Source: the human T2T-CHM13v2.0 reference genome, Homo sapiens. Taken from it: a stretch of 64,000 nucleotides of DNA. The notes beneath the pieces were generated by a model, which was not told the DNA's origin, made no database searches, and was given only the letters and a program-made list of their open reading frames with translations. Positions 9,677-21,755 of this stretch are shown in pieces. Position 1 is the first letter of the stretch. The number at the start of each line of letters is the position of its first letter. The translations under genes were made by a program, and so were the position numbers. The stretch lies in assembly GCF_009914755.1 (NCBI RefSeq), contig NC_060936.1. The stretch is one strand, 5' to 3'.

Positions 9677-10283
9677 TTGCATGTGAGTATGTAATCTGGC
9701 TCCTGTGGAAAGAAAACACATTGCTGGAAGATGAAATCACTGGACATAATTCTTTATTTCAAGCCTTTTCAGTTACACAGCTTCTTTTAAAAGTTTGACA
9801 TGCAAAATTGTTAAATATCAAAATGCAAATCATGTAATTTCTCTTCCAGATGTCCTGCTTAGCTGCATATTTTTTCAGCCTGTGTATGTAACCCCAATGC
9901 TCAGTAACATAGCTTTCTGTTCAAATCATCTGTTTCTATGACCTTTGCCTTTATTGATTCGTTTTCTTTTTTCCTATTTTCAATGTTGCCTTTGAGATTA
10001 AAGTCATTTTTCTTCTGCAATAGTAAGTGAACAGTGACTTTGCTACTAGGAAATAAATTTTTTGATAAGGAAAAAAACGATTGGTAGCTCCGTAAAGTGT
10101 TTTATTGTCGTTGTTTTTGCTGTTGTTAATGAACCTACTCAGAGAGCAATGAGATGTAAACACTGTCTCCCTCTCGCATAAAAACAAAGGTTATATAGCT
10201 AGAACCCAAAATGATCTAAAGAATAGCTAAAATGTATTGAGCACTTATTATGTGCCTAGAAATTTGCTCAGCTCTTTAGAGGT

Positions 10284-10691
10284 TTAGAGCGGTTTGGATG
10301 TCCTGCTCAAATCTCATGTTGAAATGTAATTCCCAGTGTTGGAGGTGGGGTCTGGTGGGAGGTGATAGGATCATGGGGGTGGATTTCTTATGAATGGTTT
10401 AGCACCATCTCCCTGGTGTTGTCCCTGTGATAGTGAGTGAGCTCTCACCAGATCTGATCATTTTAGAATGTGTGGCGCCTCCCCTCTCTCTCTTGATCCT
10501 GCTTTCTTCATGGAGTGTCTGCTCCTGTTTCGCCTTCCACCATGAGTAAAAACTGCCTGAGGCCTCCTCAGAAGCAGGTGCAGCTATGCTTCCTGTACAG
10601 CCTGCAGAACCATGAGCCAATTGAACTTCTTTTCTTATAAATCACCCAGTCTCAGGCATTTCTGTATAGCAAAGTAAGAACACCTAATACA
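10284..10691 (+). mobile_element. MaLR solo LTR (MSTA/MSTB-like)
   Basis: caaatctcatgttgaaatgtaattcccagtgttggaggtgggg...ctaataca; perfect 5-bp TSD GAGGT (10279-10283, 10692-10696). Confidence 0.9.
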
Positions 10692-10814
10692 GAGGTATTA
10701 TCTCATTTAGTCCTCACGGCAACTTTAAACAAGAGGCTTTATTATTATCCTCACTTTTCTGAAGCTAAAACTGACTCAGAAATGTTAAGTAGTTTGCCTA
10801 AAATGCCTTAAGTA

Positions 10815-11128
<314 letters not shown>

Positions 11129-11304
11129 AAAATGCCTTAAGTAATGGATCAAGGATTCCAGAGAGGTGGCCTAACTCCCCTGGCGTTGTTTCCAAACACT
11201 GACTTCTTGCTAAGACTCTTAAATCACCACACTCTGCTATTATACACTCTGCCTTCTTTACAAAATAAAAAAAAAAATTGCAAACAGCAGGTAATATTTC
11301 TCAT

Positions 11305-11398
11305 ATTTATTCACACATTTACTCACTCAATCAACAAATATTTATTGACTATCTGCCACATGTGAGGATCTAAGCTAGGTGCTAGGAATACACTGATC
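11305..11398 (-). mobile_element. L2 3' end
   Basis: tcaacaaatatttattgact...gctaggtgctaggaatac. Confidence 0.7.
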
Positions 11399-11854
11399 AA
11401 TTGAGTCAGAGATAATAAATCCATAGTGCAAAGTAAAATACGTAAAAATGTATGTTTCACAGGCTCAGTTCCAATCATAGTTCTCTGTGAACTATGTAAG
11501 TGCTTGGGAAAGGAATGAGGAAAAGAGGAACATTCTGTAAAGTCAATTTTAGGAGCTTTAATAGCAGTACTTCAAGAGTGTATCACAAATTAATTTTGCA
11601 GCCAGTATCCACTTATTTCTAAATATTGTTCCTAAAAAGAACGATGAATGCAATCAAATTTTAAAGACTATTTGCTTAGCTTCATTATTATACTAAAGTG
11701 GCTAATAAACTAGCCAGTTTTTAAGTACTGTCTCATTCCAATGTTTGGGGAAGCTTGGAATTTAGTAGTAGCTACAGCTGTAGCAGCAGAAGAGTCCATG
11801 GTATTTAGGAGGAAAGGGACTTTGGTGAGCTTGCATTATCATTTTGCTAAGTAG

Positions 11855-12127
<273 letters not shown>

Positions 12128-12164
12128 TAAACCATCAACACAAGAAGGCTTCAGCAAAGTTCAT

Positions 12165-12800
12165 TTGGTGCAAGGTGTAAGGAGCAGAGAGTGTGTGGCC
12201 TCCAGTGTTAGCAGGCTTGGGGTCAAAGCCAGCCCTGTGTCCTCTTTAATGGCTGTGTGACTTCCAGCAAGTTGTCCAACCTATTTTAAATTTTTAAGCT
12301 CTTATAAAATATTTCAGCCACACAGAAATGATATAGGTGATATAGAGAATGATGTAATGATTACTCATATATTCAATTCCTAGCCTAAAAATAAAACACA
12401 CAAATAGAGCAGAAGCCCATATGTATATTTTGGTTTGACCTCATTTACCTTCATCAGAAAAGAACCATCCTGAATTTGACATTTGTCACTTCTGCCCATA
12501 TCCTTAAACATTTACTACATATGTATTTTTGCCTAGGTAGTATGTACCACCATTTGGCATGTTTTGCAAAAAGTACATGAATTGTATTATATTGTTAATA
12601 TCCTCTGTCACATTTTTCACTCAACATTCTGTTTGGGAGATTTATTCATCATATGATGCCTTTGAGTTTTAGTTTCTTCATCTGTAAAATGAATACAGTA
12701 GACACATTGCATAAGGTTGCTGTGAAGATCTTAAACAAAATAATAGAATGTGCATGGCACAGTATTTGGGACATTTGTAGATGCTTCAGAGAATGTCATC
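12165..12800 (+). mobile_element. MIR split by an antisense old L1 (L1ME-like, ~12290-12652)
   Basis: gctgtgtgacttccagcaagtt...aacct continues as gcctttgagttttagtttcttcatctgtaaaatg after an L1M-like 3'UTR block. Confidence 0.7.
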
Positions 12801-14069
12801 CTCTTTCCATACCTAGTGAAATAATGTTCTGCATCTGGCATCTGAGAGGCAGCAGCCACTTGGCTTGCTCAACTGTAATGTTCAAATTACAATTTGCCAC
12901 TAAACATTCCCATTGGTATAAAAATGGCCCCACACAGCAAAGGCGAGCTGATTATAGGCATTAGCATCTAATGTTCCCTGAGAGGACTCCGCCTAAGTAT
13001 GCTGCTTTACATAGCTATAGTCATAATTTCCCTCTGGTTCTTCAAAATCAGAGTTAGATTTCTGAATATGGAAAATATAAGAGTAATGCTCAAATGCATT
13101 CCACACATGGAATACTCTGAAAATTCTATGTTAATCATCTCTGAAGACATTACACAAGCATAAGCAAATGGCACTGTAATTTAATATGCTCCACTTCTAT
13201 TTTTTCCTCAGCCTATTCTTTCCACACACTTGTATATAATTCCCTATTTTTGTTATTTTGTATTTAATTGCCTCTGCTAAAGCAAACATATTGCAGAATT
13301 GCCAATTATCTTATAAATATGTATTGCTTTCATTGAGAGGGTTTTCGTTTTTCTGGAATTCCAACAAATTTCAATCAATCATTTATACTACAAAAATCTA
13401 GTAGTTTAGAAATCTTTTAAAAATTTGCCTGAGTTTTAGGTTTCTTATAACGTTTGGTCTAATGTTGGCTGAAGGCATGTCTCTATAATATCAAAACACA
13501 TGGTAATTCAATCATTTCAGTAAAATTTACTGTCAATTTGTTAAAGGGGAAAAATCAAACTGATAGCTTTGTACAGGGTAAACAACTGATTTATTAATTA
13601 AATCTTTTACTTTTCTCCAGTTATTTATTTGTTGTATAAACGTAGGCACAGTTGTAGAGAACACAGACATCTGCTTGCAGTAAAAAACATTAAAAAAGGG
13701 AAATTCTCACTATCTTAATGCAGTAAAATGTGCGGAATCACATACTAACAGTAATCATTTGGTGGGAGGAATGGAGCTTATACTCCAAAGGTTTATTATT
13801 TTTCAACTGAACTTGACTTCCACATAAAAGCCAGCACCAAGCCCTAAATGTGAAATACAGTGGATGGCAGTTGTGTATAAATCTGATTAAAAACGTTATT
13901 TGAGAATCCTACTTCCACCAGCTGATTTAAGAAGATGAGCTTGGTCATTTGATAAAAAAGAACTAGATTTCTAAACTCTCTCTCTCTATATATACCTACA
14001 TATATATATGTATATATGCAGAGGACCTAATTGTTACAAAGGTAATGCCTAAAGGATCACTTGGTAGTG

Positions 14070-14389
14070 TTTTTTGTTTTGTTTTGTTTTTTGTTTTTTG
14101 TTTTTTTTGAGACGGAGGCTCGCTGTGTCGCCCAGGCTGGAGTGCATTGGCGCGACCTCGGCTCACTGCAAGCTCCGCCTCCCGGGTTCACGCCATTCTC
14201 CTGCCTCAGCCTTCTGAGTAACTGGGACTACAGGCGCCCACCACCACGCCCAGCTAATTGTATTTTTTGTAGAGACGGGGTTTCACCATGTTAGCCATGA
14301 TGGTCTCGATCTCCTGACGTCGTGATCCACCTTCCTCGGACTCCCAAAGTGCTGGGATTACAGGCGTGAGTCACCCACCACGCCCAGTC
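14070..14389 (-). mobile_element. AluY-like
   Basis: gcaagctccgcctcccgggttcacgccattctc diagnostic; TSD-like gtagtg. Confidence 0.93.
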
Positions 14390-14659
14390 AGTAGTGCTTT
14401 TCTTGAAAGGAGCTCAGCCCAAGGTAGATTTAGTGGTGATTTTCAAAACATCCATAAAAGATTATTATTCCAGAGCTATTAGTTTGGCATAACTCTTGTT
14501 CCCCTTTTGTAATTACGATCTGGTATGCAATTGCTAAGGAGATGTTAAAAATGTCTATATTATTTACATTGGACATTATTCTTCAGAGGTGGTAAGAGCT
14601 ACCTGCAAGTCATACAATATGTTACCAAAATACTCAGTTGAACTAAATATTTTTGTTTT

Positions 14660-14797
14660 TCAAATGTTTTTCATATTGCTAGAGATGGGATTTCGCCATG
14701 TTGGCCAGGCTTGTCTAGAATTCCTGGCCTCAAGTTATCTGCCCACCTCAGCCTCCCAAAGTGCTGGGATTATAGGTGTGAGCCATTGCGCCCCGCC
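14660..14797 (-). mobile_element. Alu left-monomer fragment
   Basis: agagatgggatttcgccatgttggccagg...gagccattgcgcc. Confidence 0.87.
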
Positions 14798-14889
14798 ATA
14801 ATTGAATTAAATATTTTAAACTGAAGATTCAGTTAACATTGACTCGCTTGGCTCCAAGACCTCCAACAACAGATAGGATGAAATTGCAT

Positions 14890-15059
14890 TGTTGCCCAGG
14901 CTGAAGTACATGGTGCAGTCATCGCTCACTGGAGCCTCGACTTCTTGAGCTCAAGCAATCCTCCCACCTCAACCTCCTGAGTAGGTAGGACCAGAGGCAC
15001 ATGCCACTGTGCCCAGATAATTTTTTTATTTTTATAAAGGCAGAATCTTACTGTGTTGC
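14890..15059 (-). mobile_element. AluJ internal fragment, truncated at both ends
   Basis: Starts tgttgcccaggctg with no poly-T tail; stops at ctgtgttgc where the inverted-repeat arm begins. Confidence 0.88.
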
Positions 15060-16135
15060 ATGAAGCCTAAACTTCATGGCTAGCTCTTCAGTCCACAAAT
15101 CACTGAGTAACAGATGTGTATCATGATCAGCAACTAATCACGTCACATCTCTCAACATTTGTCAGTGAATGGTCACTGAGCATCTGTTACTCGGTTCACA
15201 CATAGACAGCAAAGCATGCAGTTGTATTGCCTCCTTGTCTCCCAGGGATAAACCTTTGTGACATTTTACAAAAATGAATAATTGAGAGAGGGAATTGGCC
15301 AAAAAAAGTGAAAGTGCAGCAAAGAAGCAAAAATGATAACACTGAAAGTGAATTTTGACTTTCATGTAAATGGAGTTATAGAAGAAATAGCTGATTGTTG
15401 GAAGGGTGACAATGTTGCCTTTGGAAAGGCTCAATCTGTGGACAGAGGAACTTAACTAAAGGGAACTTATCGGCATAAATGAGGAAATAGTTGTGATGAA
15501 ATGGATGAAAATGTCCCAGAGGAAGACACCAGAATTTCTATGTCTCAACTAATCGTCAAGCACTTTTCTAAGTTTTGGATTAGCTTCTAACATTTTATCC
15601 TTTACACTGCCAATGTCATGAAATATCTGTGAGAAATCCTTTAATGGCAAGATTTTTGCTGGTGTCTTCCTCTGGGACATTTTCATCCATTTCATCACAA
15701 CTATTTCCTCATTTATGCCGATAAGTTCCCTTTAGTTAAGTTCCTCTGTCCACAGATTGAGCCTTTCCAAAGGCAACATTGTCACCCTTCCAACAATCAG
15801 CTATTTCTTCTATAACTCCATTTACATGAAAGTCAAAATTCACTTTCAGTGTTATCATTTTTGCTTCTTTGCTGCACTTTCACTTTTTTTGGCCAATTCC
15901 CTCTCTCAATTATTCATTTTTGTAAAATGTCACAAAGGTTTATCCCTGGGAGACAAGGAGGCAATACAACTGCATGCTTTGCTGTCTATGTGTGAACCGA
16001 GTAACAGATGCTCAGTGACCATTCACTGACAAATGTTGAGAGATGTGACGTGATTAGTTGCTGATCATGATACACATCTGTTACTCAGTGATTTGTGGAC
16101 TGAAGAGCTAGCCATGAAGTTTAGGCTTCATGCAA
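15056..16135. repeat. Perfect long inverted repeat: 477-bp arms (15056-15532; 15659-16135), 126-bp spacer
   Basis: Position i pairs with 31191-i across both arms; identical 90-aa ORFs on opposite strands (15162..15434 -, 15757..16029 +); first mismatches at 15055/16136 and 15533/15658. Confidence 0.99.
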
Positions 16136-16260
16136 TTACTCACAGCTAATATACCATGGTAGCTAAACTTGAACCATGTTGTTGGAACTGGTGTTACTTA
16201 ACTCAACCATGGTAACTGAAATTTGTGCATTTTAGAACCATGAGAAACAAGAACTGTCTG
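15533..16260 (-). mobile_element. TcMar-Tigger DNA transposon fossil (Tigger6-like); one terminus at ~16260, other end missing
   Basis: Terminus reads cagacagttcttg on the minus strand; decayed ERELAKKSESAAKKQK..ITLKV Tigger-like N-terminus; continuous through spacer, right arm and 125 bp beyond. Confidence 0.75.
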
Positions 16261-16765
16261 CATTTGATTTCTTAAAACAATTCTTGGGGAAAAGATTAAA
16301 ACTGCCATAATCAGTGTCACAATAAGAGAACCTGAAGCATTTACTTTTGGGTACCAACAAAGCATGTGTCTCAATTTTAAATCATTAATAAAAAATGTAA
16401 TTTTATCCTTAATTTTTTCCAGTGTAGAAGTTTTTTTTTTTCTTTTTTTAAAGCTAATCTTATTGCCACTCACTCCTTGGAATTAATAAATGTAACTATT
16501 GATCAAATTCACAATTGAAATATTTTGTATTGACATGCAAAATAATTTCCTAGGATCACACTTGAGTAATCAACTATTAGTTTCTTTTAGAATTTATCTT
16601 ACATTAGCGTAAACACACACACAATCTCTTACTCATCCATGCATACTTAATGATGTATATAAAACAATGACATTGAACCCATAGAATGTACAAAGATCAG
16701 AATACAGATGTAGAAATAGTGCTTACATATGGAGTTTACACATTGAATTATAACATACATACACA

Positions 16766-17345
16766 AAGTCAGTTCTGCTATAATGCTTGTTTGAGAATAT
16801 GCATTTGTCCTATTAGGGAACAATTTGAACACAATGCAAATTTTGCATTTGCGTATGCACAATTTCACACAAGAGAAACACTAGGTATGTGCAGAAAACT
16901 GCACCCAGATGAACGAAGCTGCACAGGGCTACACAAAAGGCCCACACTTCAGACATCTACCAGCTACGTTATTTCACCATGCATATCCTGAGCCACATTT
17001 GTCCACACCCATTGTGACAACTGTCTGTTAAGTTTTAGATAACCCTTTACAATTTCATAACAAGTAAAAGCTATAATCCTTCAGATGCTTTCTTCCACAA
17101 GCAAATTTCAGGTCCCTTTCAAAGTAAAATCACATATTTATTATAGTATTTGTGCATTTTTTAACCATTTAAGATGGAAAAAACTGTGTTACTGCTTTTT
17201 TAAATTGGTTTCTATCTTTTTTTATGTGTCAGTGACAATGGTACGCCCTAACCCCATAAGGCCTGTGGTTTTTATTGTGCAATTTTGCATAGTGCACTGA
17301 TTTTTTTTTTGAAATGTACACATCGTGTTGCATAGATTTATGTAG
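16766..17345. mobile_element. TcMar-Tigger non-autonomous fossil (Tigger8-like)
   Basis: agtcagttctgctataatgc start; ctaaccccataaggcctgtggtttttattgtgcaattttgcatag near the other end. Confidence 0.65.
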
Positions 17346-17649
17346 ACTATAAAAAGAATGTATATGACTTTTTCTCTCCAAAGATTAAAATTTACTAGTA
17401 TAAAATTATTTAAAGTCTGAGTGGTGGAGCCCATGGTGTGACATTGCTTTTCAGGGCTTTAAACATCTTCTATGTGAGAAAGCCAAGTTTAAAAAATAGT
17501 CAAAAGGATGATTACCCAATCGAACCTCTAAAAACAAACCCATGACCGTGAAGGCTGTTTGCCTATTCTATCAGTAAATTCATAGTTGATGAGGAGAATT
17601 TTCAGCTTCTGCAGAGAGGCTCTATCTGTCTAGCTTTGAATTGTCTAAA

Positions 17650-18131
17650 CTAGTTGTTCTCAAACTTGAGTGTGCCTTGGGATCACCTGAAGGGCTTGTC
17701 AGATGCACGTTGCTGAGTTTCTGGATCATTAAGTCTTGGGTAGTACTCAAGAATTTGCATTTTCAATAAGTTCCCAGATGGTGCTAGGGCAAACTTATCC
17801 ACTAGGCACAGTAACACAGCACCTAAAAGTTGGACACTAAAAGTCCAATTTACTTTTAGTGAACCATGAAAATAGTTTGATTTTAATCTCTCTTCAAATC
17901 AGAATAAAATAATGAATATGATAATAATGAATGTATATGAGGAATCCAACCTAGAATATATTCATCTTTATATTAACGCAGTATAAAAATATTAATTCTA
18001 TTTGTTTATGTATTTCTAATGAAGGAGGGGACATGTGAAGGCAAAAGGGCCCCTGGTCCATGGAAGTCATGATGTGGCCCTGGCTGATGCAACTGCTGCT
18101 GCAGGAAGCATATGTTGAGAAGCGCTACTCT
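17650..18131. mobile_element. MER5A-like hAT-Charlie, split by a MER96B-like insertion
   Basis: gttctcaaacttgagtgtgc..gatcacctgaagggcttgt..gaatttgcatttt..aagttcccag, resuming gctgatgc..ttgagaagcgct. Confidence 0.75.
17785..18082. mobile_element. MER96B-like hAT-Tip100 element
   Basis: (t)agggc..acttatccactaggcacagta ... gtcatgatgtggccctg termini; degenerate 8-bp TSD gatggtgc/gctgatgc. Confidence 0.7.
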
Positions 18132-18939
18132 GAACTCACTGATCTTTTGAGATTTGTTAGTGTTCTGCTTTTCATTCTGAACTCTTTTGACTCTGTGCTG
18201 TTTTTACTCAGAAGAAATAAAGTTTTTAAGCCCCCTGCAATGCAAAGGAAGTCAATGGAACAACAAGCTAGTTTAAGCTCAGGAGATGTGAGGAACAACA
18301 CATGGTCAGAAATGTGTTTCTGATGTGGTCTTTCTATTCCTCACTCTGATGTAAGTTTTAAATTACAACTACATGTGTTGTACCTCCATCATTGCAAAAG
18401 AACCAGTTTAAAGATCCAACTAGTGAAGAATCTGGTCTATAAGACAATGCCTTAATAACACTCCAGATGCCATACTGTTCAAAAAACACTTACACTTTTC
18501 CATTTAGGATCCATCTGTTCCTCACAACCCCCTGTTCCATAGGTATTGCATTGTACTGAGCAGCAATATTCTAATATTTGGTAGCAATAAGAATAAACAA
18601 AAAACGTCCCCCACCCCACAAATCACTCACAGGATAAGCAGAGTTTAGACAAACAGCCCCTTATTACCATGGGGCAACTCTTATTTTTGTTACAGCTCCT
18701 GTGTTCCTACTCTTTCCAAAATCATTGCTACAAAAACTCAATAAACAATGAAATAAATGCATTCATAGTGTACTATAACACCTTAAGCATTCTCAATACT
18801 CTTTCCTACTTAATATAATCACTAATGAAAAAGAGGTTATATATGAAACAAGCAAAGCTTTTGTTGTATTTTTGAAATTTTAGACCTTTTATACATTCAT
18901 TTTGGAAACTATGAAACCTACTGACTGACAGGCAAAAAG

Positions 18940-19365
18940 AAGAAAGTAAAAATAATTCATAAGCCCACTTCAGAGATAAATAACCATTGGTAATATTTTG
19001 TTATTATTTACATATATTGTTGGTTTTCATGTATAGTATTTTTTAAAATAGATGATACAGTTTATAATGTTTACAATTTTACTTTAAAGCCTAGCAATAT
19101 ATTACAAACCTAAAGAATAAATCATGGGGTTAAAATTTTTGCATGAAATTCCATATGAATGGAGTTTCTGTTCTTAAATAACCAATTCCTTATTATTGGA
19201 GATTTAGGTTGTCTCTTATTTTCTGTTACAAACAAGGCTCTGAAGAACATTTTTTGTGTGGATGGTCAAATATTTATTTCTTTAATTTAGGGAAATGGAA
19301 TCCCTAGGTTAAAAAGACTGCTATTTTGAAGGTTTCTGACTCATATTTTCAAATTGTGCTTTAGC
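18940..19365 (-). mobile_element. Old L1 (L1ME-like) 3' fragment
   Basis: accaattccttattattggagatttaggttgt...ttacaaacaaggctctgaagaacatt. Confidence 0.65.
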
Positions 19366-20093
19366 TCCAGGACTCCTCCGATTAACATCAACAAGGAGGT
19401 ACTATGCAGTGAAATTGGTTCCACTATCTGATATAAAAAGACCAAATAACTCTGGAGGTACATTTAGCAATAATTGAAATCTGGGGCAAAACACATAAAA
19501 TGTCGTCACGAATTGATAAGAATGCACCAACGCAGGCTGTGGGGTGGGAGAAAGGAGACGGAGGAGAAGAGAGAAACTGGACCGTGAGCAATGTGCTCTT
19601 CACTTCCGGTCCCTGGCTCCTTTACCATGCATCAGCTCCTGAGGGGTCTATGTGGAGACAGAGGAATATCTCCACTTCAGCTGAAGAGGCAGTGATGACA
19701 GGAGAAAAATTACAGATTTTAATAATTATTAAAATTCTGCCCTTTAAATTTTGGTGCCTTGGGGCAAAGTTATGACCAGCTCATCTAAGTTGTAGTTCTG
19801 AGGAACTTCCTGTCTTTACCTTGGTGGTCTTGGAGAAGTGGTACAACCCAGCCCCAATGGCAGATGACTCTAGAAGAGACCCTTCCAAAGCAGGATAAGT
19901 TTCACCCTTATGGGAAATCAGGATGGTAAGTTTCACCCTTATTGGAGTGGTAGGGCTCCCTGGAGTGTTGTGTTGAGAAGGATCCTGAGCTGCAACCAGA
20001 AGAGGTGGGCAGAGGGCTGTGATTGGTTGATAATATCTGTTATGGGCACAGGAATGGAGATTAATAGACTGACACCAGAGTATTCATTAGGCC

Positions 20094-20503
<410 letters not shown>

Positions 20504-20552
20504 TAGTAATAGGAATCCACCTGCTCAAGGCATTGTTTTTCTTTAAAACATA

Positions 20553-20676
20553 TTGTTTTTAATAGCGACAGGGTCTCATTAGGTTGCCAAGACTAGTCTC
20601 AAACTCCTGGGCTCACGTGATCCTCCTGCCTCAGCCTCCCAAAATGCTGGGATTACCAGCATAAACCACTGTGCTC
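20553..20676 (-). mobile_element. FLAM / Alu monomer
   Basis: Single antisense monomer. Confidence 0.8.
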
Positions 20677-21755
20677 CTCCCTTTTTATTAAGTGAAAAAT
20701 ATTTTAATGAATTTGTGTGTTTACAGTTTTTTTCCCATTTTCCCTGTTTTCTATTTTTTTAAAAAAGGTGAAAAAGTATAAAGTCTATTACCATAAATTT
20801 CAGCTTCCTGTTTATATGAGCATTTAATATAAAGTAGAAAAAGGAAAACATAGGGGAAAAGAAAACAGAAGGAGAGAAAGTGAGGGAGATATTAGCTGAA
20901 ATTTGTAGAGGGGAAAGAAATGTACACTTTATCCTGCAGAGAAAAAAAAATGAAGGTAAATATGGACATGAGTTGGGAAGAAAAAGGAAAAAAGGAGGAA
21001 GCGAGAGGGAAGGAAGGAGGGATGGAGAGAGGTCTCACAGTTCTTGAAAAGACTAACTGTGCTAGTAAAAATGAGCAGAGTGAGTGAGTACAGACAGAAG
21101 AAAATCTGTTTAGTCTTATCAAAGTTAGTTGATGTAGGCTTTGAGATGCTGCCTCATTGGGAGCCCAGAAGAATTTTTGTTGAATATGCAATTACATGAA
21201 GAAGCCAACAAATAGTACCGGTCAATTTCTTCTAACATCTTGCTTCCAGGAATGCTTCGCTTCTATTAAGGCTGATAGTTTGCCTAAGGACAATGAATCA
21301 GAATGGTGACATCTCATAATATTCTCATATACAAATTCTCCTAACTCAATAAAAGTAAATGCAAATCTGCTGTCAGAAGCTATAGTGTCTGGCAAAACAT
21401 GTGATATAAATAATTGGTGTGGGGTTGTCATTTTGACAGCAGGCATTTGAAATGAAACTGAGGTTGGACTGAGGCCACTGGCATTAGTTTTAACACTTGA
21501 ATAATCCTGCAATATCAATATGCAATTTTGACCAAAAATTTCTTGAGTCACTTCCTAGGAAAATGTTTGTGCTTTTGGAGTGTTATGTTTAATTTCTTGA
21601 CATGTACTAGACTAATCTGGTCTTTTGTTTTCTAATTCTTCTTGAAAAATCAAATTGATTTAAAATTTTAAAAGGTGTACACATCTAATTTGACATGTAA
21701 ATAACACATCAGCATATAAAATTAAAACTGAGTGTCTCTTCAAAAAGAAGGAATG

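What the first reader, a model, noticed from the sequence alone, without database searches (positions are those of the whole stretch)
15056..16135. Perfect 477-bp-arm palindrome made from an ancient, dead Tigger fossil
Seen: arms 15056-15532 and 15659-16135 are exact reverse complements (I compared the full arm length and found no mismatch, CpGs included) around a 126-bp spacer. The arms are not transposon TIRs: they are internal Tigger sequence, and the native copy continues through the spacer on one side and 125 bp to its terminus (16260) on the other. Known: Tigger elements stopped moving tens of millions of years ago, and long perfect inverted repeats with short spacers are unstable and uncommon. 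Inference: zero divergence between arms of an old repeat means a very recent inverted duplication (possibly polymorphic or lineage-specific) or continuing arm-to-arm gene conversion.
Basis: partly seen in the sequence, partly recalled or inferred. Interest (0 to 1): 0.85.

Follow-up and report, generated by a model that had tools for sequence, protein, structure and literature searches.

The report
Recent inverted duplication in transposon fossil
A 477-base piece of an ancient, dead DNA transposon was copied in reverse right next to itself, probably within the last few million years, leaving a perfect hairpin-forming repeat in a gene-poor stretch of human chromosome 12; it is a clean example of a known kind of mutation, not a new kind of element.

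Summary
Arms 15056-15532 and 15659-16135 are 477 nt, 100% complementary, and 126 nt apart.

The arms are internal sequence of an old interspersed DNA transposon family of about 1.03-1.08 kb. The family has roughly 20-nt terminal inverted repeats and TA flanks. Other copies are only 69-78% identical to the arm.

All 18 other copies examined are colinear with spacer + right arm + terminal 125 bp. So the right arm is native and the left arm is the new inverted copy.

The left arm abuts a truncated antisense Alu with 3-4 nt of microhomology. The element's own left 310-340 bp is missing.

Best reading: a single template-switch or fold-back repair event, type "1-4-3-2" of the four-point model. It happened within the last ~2% of the element's residence time, roughly 1.4-7 My or less.

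Arm-to-arm gene conversion of an older duplication, and an assembly artefact, cannot be excluded without other assemblies or reads.

No RNA family match lies in the arms. The "Tigger" name is supported only at superfamily level. This is a new instance of a known mutation type, of moderate interest.

The parts
15056..15532 (.). Left arm: the derived, inverted copy of 15659-16135
   Evidence: It is 100% reverse complement of the right arm. Its outer neighbour is an Alu, not the family's sequence. In 18 of 18 other loci this arm matches only in reverse orientation to the same stretch that matches the right arm.
15533..15658 (-). Spacer (126 nt): native, unduplicated part of the transposon fossil. 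It would form the loop of the fold-back.
   Evidence: It is colinear with other copies from about 15535 onwards. It carries a minus-strand ORF remnant, 15549-15731.
15659..16135 (-). Right arm: native template segment of the transposon fossil
   Evidence: It is contiguous with the spacer on one side and the terminal 125 bp on the other in all other copies aligned.
16136..16260 (-). Native terminal 125 bp of the element, ending in its TIR at g16260. It is followed by 'ca' where most copies have TA.
   Evidence: Alignment of the window with 14 copies: homology ends at the same column, and 10 of 14 copies have TA directly after the terminus. The TIR matches the left-end TIR of other copies.
14868..15059 (-). 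Antisense Alu fragment (right monomer and linker) cut off at the outer junction. Its left monomer is missing.
   Evidence: Rfam SRP/Alu-type sub-threshold match at 14868-15017 on the minus strand. Pairwise alignment to two full Alus of the window runs to about 15058-15060 and then stops being Alu-like.
15056..15059 (.). Outer junction microhomology (3-4 nt, TTG or TTGC), readable both as the end of the Alu fragment and as the complement of native 16132-16135
   Evidence: The family column at 16132-16135 reads GCAA in most copies.

Best explanation
A single mutational event copied 473-477 nt of an already decayed, immobile TA-flanked DNA transposon fossil in reverse-complement orientation. The copy was placed 126 nt upstream of its template. 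It replaced whatever lay between an old antisense Alu and the fossil, including the fossil's own left 310-340 bp and the Alu's left monomer. In the four-point template-switch description, synthesis coming from the left left the template at point 1 (15055-15059, inside the Alu). It resumed at point 2 (16135), copied backwards on the complementary or nascent strand to point 3 (15659), and returned to point 4 (15533). This is order 1-4-3-2. The same product arises from break repair: a break left of 15533, resection, fold-back of the 3' end with a 126-nt loop, about 0.5 kb of synthesis, unwinding, and end-joining to the Alu end through 3-4 nt of microhomology. The event is young, so the arms are still identical. 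The product is most likely neutral: an intergenic sequence with hairpin or cruciform potential and no evident function. Shown here: the anatomy, which arm is native, the missing element end, the outer microhomology, and the age bound. Inferred: the mechanism, its replicative or repair nature, and neutrality.
For: The IR is perfect at 477 nt with a 126-nt spacer. Only the two arms are 100% identical in the whole assembly, and the next best matches are 75-77%. All 18 other loci are colinear with 15535-16260, so the right arm is native. The family extends 310-340 bp further left in full copies (left ends, offsets), and nothing of that part is detectable in 10000-21000 or in the flanks. The Alu fragment is truncated exactly at the junction, with TTG(C) shared. 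Mean mismatch to 14 copies is 0.24, giving about 69 substitutions per arm since insertion against 0 between arms; the duplication therefore falls within the last 2.2% of residence time at 95%. The T95 is 2.8-7.1 My with per-year rates of 1e-9 to 0.4e-9. In passages of PMC5453318, type 1-4-3-2 'creates an inverted repeat' and makes up 31% of high-confidence human-chimp events. In passages of PMC11724301, fold-back priming with a 41-nt loop followed by end-joining, with 0-5 bp microhomology, gives local inverted duplications. In passages of PMC3907307, human fold-back inverted duplications always keep an unduplicated spacer and show 2-8 bp of microhomology.
Against: No second assembly, outgroup or read set could be consulted, so the ancestral allele is inferred and not seen. 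Microhomology at the inner junction (15530-15535) cannot be resolved, because this copy's own ancestral bases are unknown. The scale lies between the documented classes. Short template switches are tens of bp and yeast fold-backs are 2 to about 150 bp. Constitutional human fold-backs have spacers of 766-70,466 bp and duplications of several Mb and more in the table rows seen. The element could already have been truncated on the left before the event.
Confidence: 0.75

Rival explanations
1. The inverted duplication is old (more than about 7 My) and the arms are kept identical by recurrent arm-to-arm gene conversion. This is what happens in the large sex-chromosome palindromes.
For: Zero differences over 477 nt, including 3 CpGs per arm, is what conversion would also give. 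Conversion in large human palindromes is cited in the review PMC7999016 (reference-list entries seen).
Against: A young age explains the data without any extra process. With a flat prior on age, the likelihood exp(-t/~2 My) puts most weight on the last few My. The arms are short (477 nt), compared with the kilobase-to-megabase palindromes for which conversion is documented (recall). No diverged patch or conversion-tract boundary is visible.
Confidence: 0.13
2. The left arm is an assembly or library fold-back artefact and does not exist in the CHM13 genome.
For: Only one haplotype assembly was available, and no reads could be inspected.
Against: The structure is interstitial with unique flanks on both sides. 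It comes with a matching loss of sequence (the element's left end and the Alu's left monomer) and a microhomology junction, which is typical of biological rearrangements. That read-level fold-back chimeras usually span whole reads rather than 477 nt is recall only.
Confidence: 0.05
3. The palindrome is part of the transposon's own architecture (long TIRs), or it is two independent insertions of the family in opposite orientation.
For: Some non-autonomous DNA transposons are nearly palindromic (recall).
Against: The family's TIRs are about 20 nt. None of 14 other copies shows a long inverted self-match; only two 20-23-nt matches were found. Independent copies differ by 22-31%, not 0%. The left arm lacks both element termini.
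Confidence: 0.01

Closest known systems
Template-switch mutations, four-point model type 1-4-3-2 (Loytynoja & Goldman 2017, PMC5453318; passages read)
   Same: A reverse-complement copy of nearby sequence is placed next to its template and replaces the stretch between switch points 1 and 4. This creates a perfect inverted repeat in one step.
   Different: The copied fragment here is 473-477 nt. The events described there are short-range, with inserted segments of tens of bp and a 14-bp lower filter. The ancestral allele was not observed here.
Fold-back priming plus end-joining at a double-strand break (yeast, PMC11724301; human constitutional inverted duplications, PMC3907307; passages read)
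   Same: An unduplicated spacer corresponds to the fold-back loop. Microhomology of a few nt lies at the junction to the other end. Sequence at the break is lost.
   Different: The yeast events are 2 to about 150 bp with a 41-nt loop. The human cases have spacers of 766-70,466 bp with duplications of several Mb or more (table rows seen) and terminal deletions. This one is 0.5 kb, interstitial and apparently harmless.
Long inverted repeats as catalogued in LIRBase (PMC8728187; passages read)
   Same: Arms over 400 nt, at least 80% matches and a loop of 100 kb or less: this locus meets the stated criteria.
   Different: Most catalogued LIRs are imperfect pairs of interspersed repeats. This one is perfect and comes from a local duplication. 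Whether it is listed there was not checked, because the database is not available here.
Gene-converting palindromes of the human sex chromosomes (mentioned in PMC7999016; details recalled)
   Same: Near-identical inverted arms around a unique spacer.
   Different: Those arms are kilobases to megabases long, carry genes and are shared between species. Here the arms are 477 nt of dead transposon, and there is no evidence of conversion.
TA-flanked pogo/Tigger-type DNA transposon fossils
   Same: TA at both ends, short TIRs beginning CAGG, about 1 kb non-autonomous copies, and 24% mean mismatch between copies.
   Different: No DDE_1 or other transposase domain was recovered from the window copy or from 19 related loci. 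The subfamily name could not be assigned without Dfam.

Membership tests
Tc1/mariner-pogo (Tigger-type) DNA transposon fossil | TA target-site duplication at both ends | tested here: met
   At the right end, 10 of 14 other copies have TA directly after the terminus; the window copy has CA. At the left end, 4 of 4 ends located are preceded by TA.
Tc1/mariner-pogo (Tigger-type) DNA transposon fossil | Short terminal inverted repeats | tested here: met
   The left ends of L026, L027, L028 and L030 and the reverse-complemented right ends of L025, L030 and L034 share about 20 nt beginning CAGGCAG. The window's right end is a decayed version.
Tc1/mariner-pogo (Tigger-type) DNA transposon fossil | Homology to a pogo-type DDE transposase (Pfam DDE_1 and the like) | tested here: inconclusive
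   Pfam gave 0 families for 5 window ORFs and no DDE_1 in 102 ORFs from 19 related loci. tblastn of family ORFs against 14 DDE_1-bearing loci gave nothing significant. The search for homologous proteins found none. The minus-strand ORF remnants resemble the C-terminal tail of Tigger transposases only by recall.
Tc1/mariner-pogo (Tigger-type) DNA transposon fossil | Match to a named Dfam/Repbase consensus | not testable with these tools
   No repeat library was available.
One-step template-switch / fold-back inverted duplication | The inverted copy lies next to its template and is separated from it by an unduplicated spacer | tested here: met
   the spacer and right arm are native, and the left arm is inverted.
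One-step template-switch / fold-back inverted duplication | Loss or replacement of the sequence between the switch points (points 1 and 4) | tested here: met
   The element's left 310-340 bp and the Alu's left monomer are absent. That they were present before the event is inferred.
One-step template-switch / fold-back inverted duplication | Microhomology at the junctions | tested here: inconclusive
   The outer junction has 3-4 nt, TTG(C). The inner junction is unresolved at 0-2 nt.
One-step template-switch / fold-back inverted duplication | An ancestral allele without the inverted copy in an outgroup or other haplotype | not testable with these tools
   Only T2T-CHM13 was searchable.
Gene-converting palindrome | The palindrome is shared by diverged species, with arms more alike within a species than between species | not testable with these tools
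   No other primate assembly was available.
Palindromic non-autonomous transposon (arms are the element's own long TIRs) | The same inverted architecture in other copies of the family | tested here: not met
   0 of 14 copies have a long inverted self-match.
miRNA or hairpin-RNA gene | Match to a curated RNA family, or evidence of transcription | tested here: not met
   An Rfam E-value search of 13500-18000 gave 8 matches, all in Alu sequence at 14107-15019 and none in the arms or spacer. Per the hub's table, no gene is annotated between the end of BTG1-DT and 40076. Expression data were not available.

The most novel reading that the evidence does not exclude
The locus is a human-lineage-specific, perhaps still polymorphic, roughly 0.5-kb template-switch product. 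That is an order of magnitude longer than the short-range events catalogued so far. It would have created, in one step, a 477-bp perfect hairpin that can be transcribed into long double-stranded RNA (a source of small RNAs or an editing substrate), or that acts as a mild replication or fragility hotspot about 85 kb upstream of BTG1.
Probability: 0.08. Interest if true: 0.55.

Novelty: new member of a known kind. Interest (0 to 1): 0.3.

Why it matters
The locus is an unusually clean natural record of a mid-sized inverted duplication. Both junctions, the unduplicated loop, the lost sequence and a datable template are all readable from one sequence. Events of this size fall between the short template switches studied in primate alignments and the large fold-back duplications studied in patients. 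They also escape the non-B DNA annotation seen here, which caps the spacer at 100 nt (bioRxiv 10.64898/2026.03.05.709836, passages). If the left arm is absent in some humans or in other apes, the locus would give a dated example for calibrating how long perfect hairpins of this size survive. Otherwise it is a neutral curiosity in a gene desert.

Tried and rejected
1. Naming the repeat through protein homology led nowhere.
- Stop-free ORFs of the window gave no Pfam family.
- 102 ORFs of at least 75 aa from 19 related loci gave no transposase domain. The four weak hits, to five unrelated families, were all below cut-off.
- tblastn of family ORFs against 14 loci holding Pfam DDE_1 gave nothing, apart from Alu-derived poly-F/Alu frames.
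- blastn-short of the element ends against the same loci gave only 12-21-nt chance matches.
- The search for homologous proteins with 'longer' lengths scored none of 171 candidates.

2. I looked for remnants of the element's missing left end.
- BLAST of window 10000-21000 against 14 extended copies found only Alu matches outside the palindrome.
- Smith-Waterman scores of 14392-14679, 14798-14867 and 16261-16560 against 8 left ends were no better than shuffles.

3. I considered that the Alu pieces at 14680-14797 and 14868-15059 might be two halves of one split Alu, which would indicate a more complex rearrangement. I rejected this because they overlap by about 25 consensus positions.

4. I considered long TIRs or two independent insertions and rejected both.

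6. Warburton et al. 2004 on human inverted repeats was not held. Nothing is cited from it.

7. Literature searches found no paper describing this locus. The search for 'inverted duplication' + Tigger + palindrome + human returned 2 papers, on mir-548/Made1 and on 22q13 deletions, and neither concerns this locus. The searches gave only general work. Supplementary tables of structural-variant catalogues were not searched.

Full report
**Observation.**
The repeat finder on 14000-17500 reports one inverted pair: arms 15056-15532 and 15659-16135, 477 nt, 100% complementary, 126 nt apart. A direct string test confirms exact reverse complementarity. The flanking bases g15055/t16136 and a15533/g15658 do not pair.

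Arm G+C is 39%. Each arm has 3 CpGs.

As single-stranded DNA, the 1080 nt fold into one uninterrupted stem with a minimum free energy of -618.9 kcal/mol (no shuffles are offered at this length).

Within the 64-kb window there are 38 inverted pairs closer than 5 kb. The other 24 of the 25 listed are 85-189 nt long and 71-88% complementary. The feature is real and far beyond chance.

**What the arms are made of.**
A DNA search of the window's own assembly (T2T-CHM13; the window is C12:92194001-92258000) with 15533-16260 scored 40 of 422 candidates and gave 46 matches. Only the two arms are 100% identical. The next best matches are 75-77%, and most are 70-73%.

All 18 other loci fetched match 15535..16261 in one piece in forward orientation. 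They match the left arm only in reverse, over the same stretch of their own sequence.

The other copies continue to resemble each other further left than the point equivalent to 15533. So the window copy is cut there.

Alignments of 14 extended copies fix the family's ends.
- **Right end.** Homology stops at the column of g16260. 10 of 14 copies have TA directly after it; the window has CA.
- **Left end.** Four copies show TA followed by a terminal repeat of about 20 nt beginning CAGGCAG. This is the reverse complement of the right end.

From these ends and the offsets, full copies are about 1.03-1.08 kb. The window copy keeps 728 bp (15533-16260) and lacks its left 310-340 bp.

None of the 14 copies has a long internal inverted repeat. 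The arms are therefore neither the family's TIRs nor part of its normal architecture.

**Is it a Tigger?**
TA flanks and short TIRs place the family in the TA-inserting Tc1/mariner-pogo group.

Minus-strand ORF remnants exist in the window (15549-15731) and in relatives. By my recollection only, they look like the C-terminal tail of Tigger-type transposases.

No tool confirmed this.
- Pfam gave nothing for 5 window ORFs.
- Pfam gave nothing relevant for 102 ORFs from 19 related loci.
- tblastn against 14 DDE_1-bearing loci of the same genome was not significant.
- A database search scored none of 171 candidates.

The family behaves as a non-autonomous deletion derivative. Its subfamily name needs Dfam.

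**Age of the fossil and of the duplication.**
The right arm differs from 14 other copies by 20-26% at aligned bases, with a mean of 0.24. Under a star phylogeny this is about 0.144 substitutions per site per copy, or about 69 substitutions per arm since insertion.

There are none between the arms. At 95% confidence, the arms have been separate for at most 2.2% of the element's residence time.
- This corresponds to about 1.4 My at 2.2e-9 substitutions per site per year.
- It corresponds to about 3.1 My at 1e-9 per site per year.

Using per-year rates of 0.4-1.0e-9 with a tenfold CpG rate gives T95 = 2.8-7.1 My and a median-type value of 0.65-1.6 My.

So "recent" is justified. It does not by itself show human specificity or polymorphism.

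**Junctions.**
- **Outer junction.** The sequence left of 15056 is an antisense Alu fragment covering the right monomer and linker. Rfam gives an SRP-type sub-threshold match at 14868-15017. Alignment to two full Alus of the window runs to about 15058-15060. The fragment's last bases, TTG(C), are also the complement of the native bases 16132-16135, which read GCAA in most family copies. That is 3-4 nt of microhomology. The Alu's left monomer is missing and is not found on the far side of the palindrome.
- **Inner junction.** Family homology is clear from 15535 rightwards. The bases 15530-15534 cannot be assigned, because this copy's ancestral state is unknown.

No trace of the element's missing left end is detectable in 10000-21000. 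None is found in the immediate flanks by Smith-Waterman scoring against shuffles either.

**Mechanism.**
The anatomy is the 1-4-3-2 case of the four-point template-switch model, with point 1 in the Alu, point 2 at 16135, point 3 at 15659 and point 4 at 15533. [quoted passage not shown]

The same product is predicted by fold-back repair of a break. In yeast, a resected end folds back with a 41-nt loop and is extended, and the new strand is unwound and joined to the other end with 0-5 bp of microhomology (PMC11724301, passages). In human constitutional inverted duplications, an unduplicated spacer was found in all 21 sequenced junctions and 2-8 bp of inverted microhomology in 13 of them (PMC3907307, passages).

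Template switching is reported to create perfect stems in a single event (PMC10710096, passages).

The scale is what differs here. The copy is about 0.5 kb, against tens of bp or up to about 150 bp. The loop is 126 nt, against 766-70,466 bp.

I cannot tell the replicative version from the break-repair version.

**Rivals.**
- **Gene conversion of an older duplication.** This fits the identity equally well but needs an extra process. It would be shown by both arms being present in distant apes.
- **Assembly artefact.** This is unlikely, given unique flanks, matched sequence loss and a microhomology junction. Reads were not available.
- **Two independent insertions, or long TIRs.** Both are excluded.

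**Consequences.**
No Rfam family matches the arms or the spacer. All 8 weak matches lie in Alu sequence. According to the hub's table, the locus lies between BTG1-DT and LINC02391 with no annotated gene.

A review passage reports that inverted Alus with a 12-bp spacer stall replication in primate cells. With a 52-bp spacer they did so only in E. coli (PMC7999016).

The non-B DNA annotation seen here caps the spacer at 100 nt, so this repeat would be missed there. It does meet the stated LIRBase criteria of arms over 400 nt and at least 80% matches.

**Novelty.**
No paper on this locus turned up in the searches. Structural-variant supplements were not searched.

The kind of event is well known. 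The instance is a tidy, mid-sized example.

**Verdict.**
This is a new member of a known kind, of moderate-to-low interest. A cross-assembly comparison is the decisive missing step.

Noticed in passing
window 14680-14797: An isolated antisense Alu left-monomer-like fragment with a T-rich stretch before it, 70 nt upstream of the truncated Alu at 14868-15059. The two overlap by about 25 consensus positions, so they are not halves of one Alu.
   Followed up: partly
L021, L023, L033, L034 (aligned columns just left of the 15533-equivalent): In 4 of 14 other copies of the family, homology is interrupted at the same A-rich stretch by A-rich or poly-A sequence that looks like Alu tails. This suggests a recurrent retroposon insertion spot inside this transposon family.
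   Followed up: no
L074:1276-1749 (+), i.e. G000:C12:120515481-120515954: A relative of the family keeps a 158-aa stop-free frame across the transposase-tail remnant, ending in a poly-F/Alu-derived stretch. It has no Pfam match.
   Followed up: partly
window 13975-14035: A short CT/TA-type microsatellite lies directly upstream of the full Alu at 14063-14391.
   Followed up: no
window 14205-14256 and 14893-14951: Sub-threshold Rfam matches to mir-1268 and mir-3135 lie inside Alu sequence. They are Alu-derived look-alikes below gathering score.
   Followed up: no
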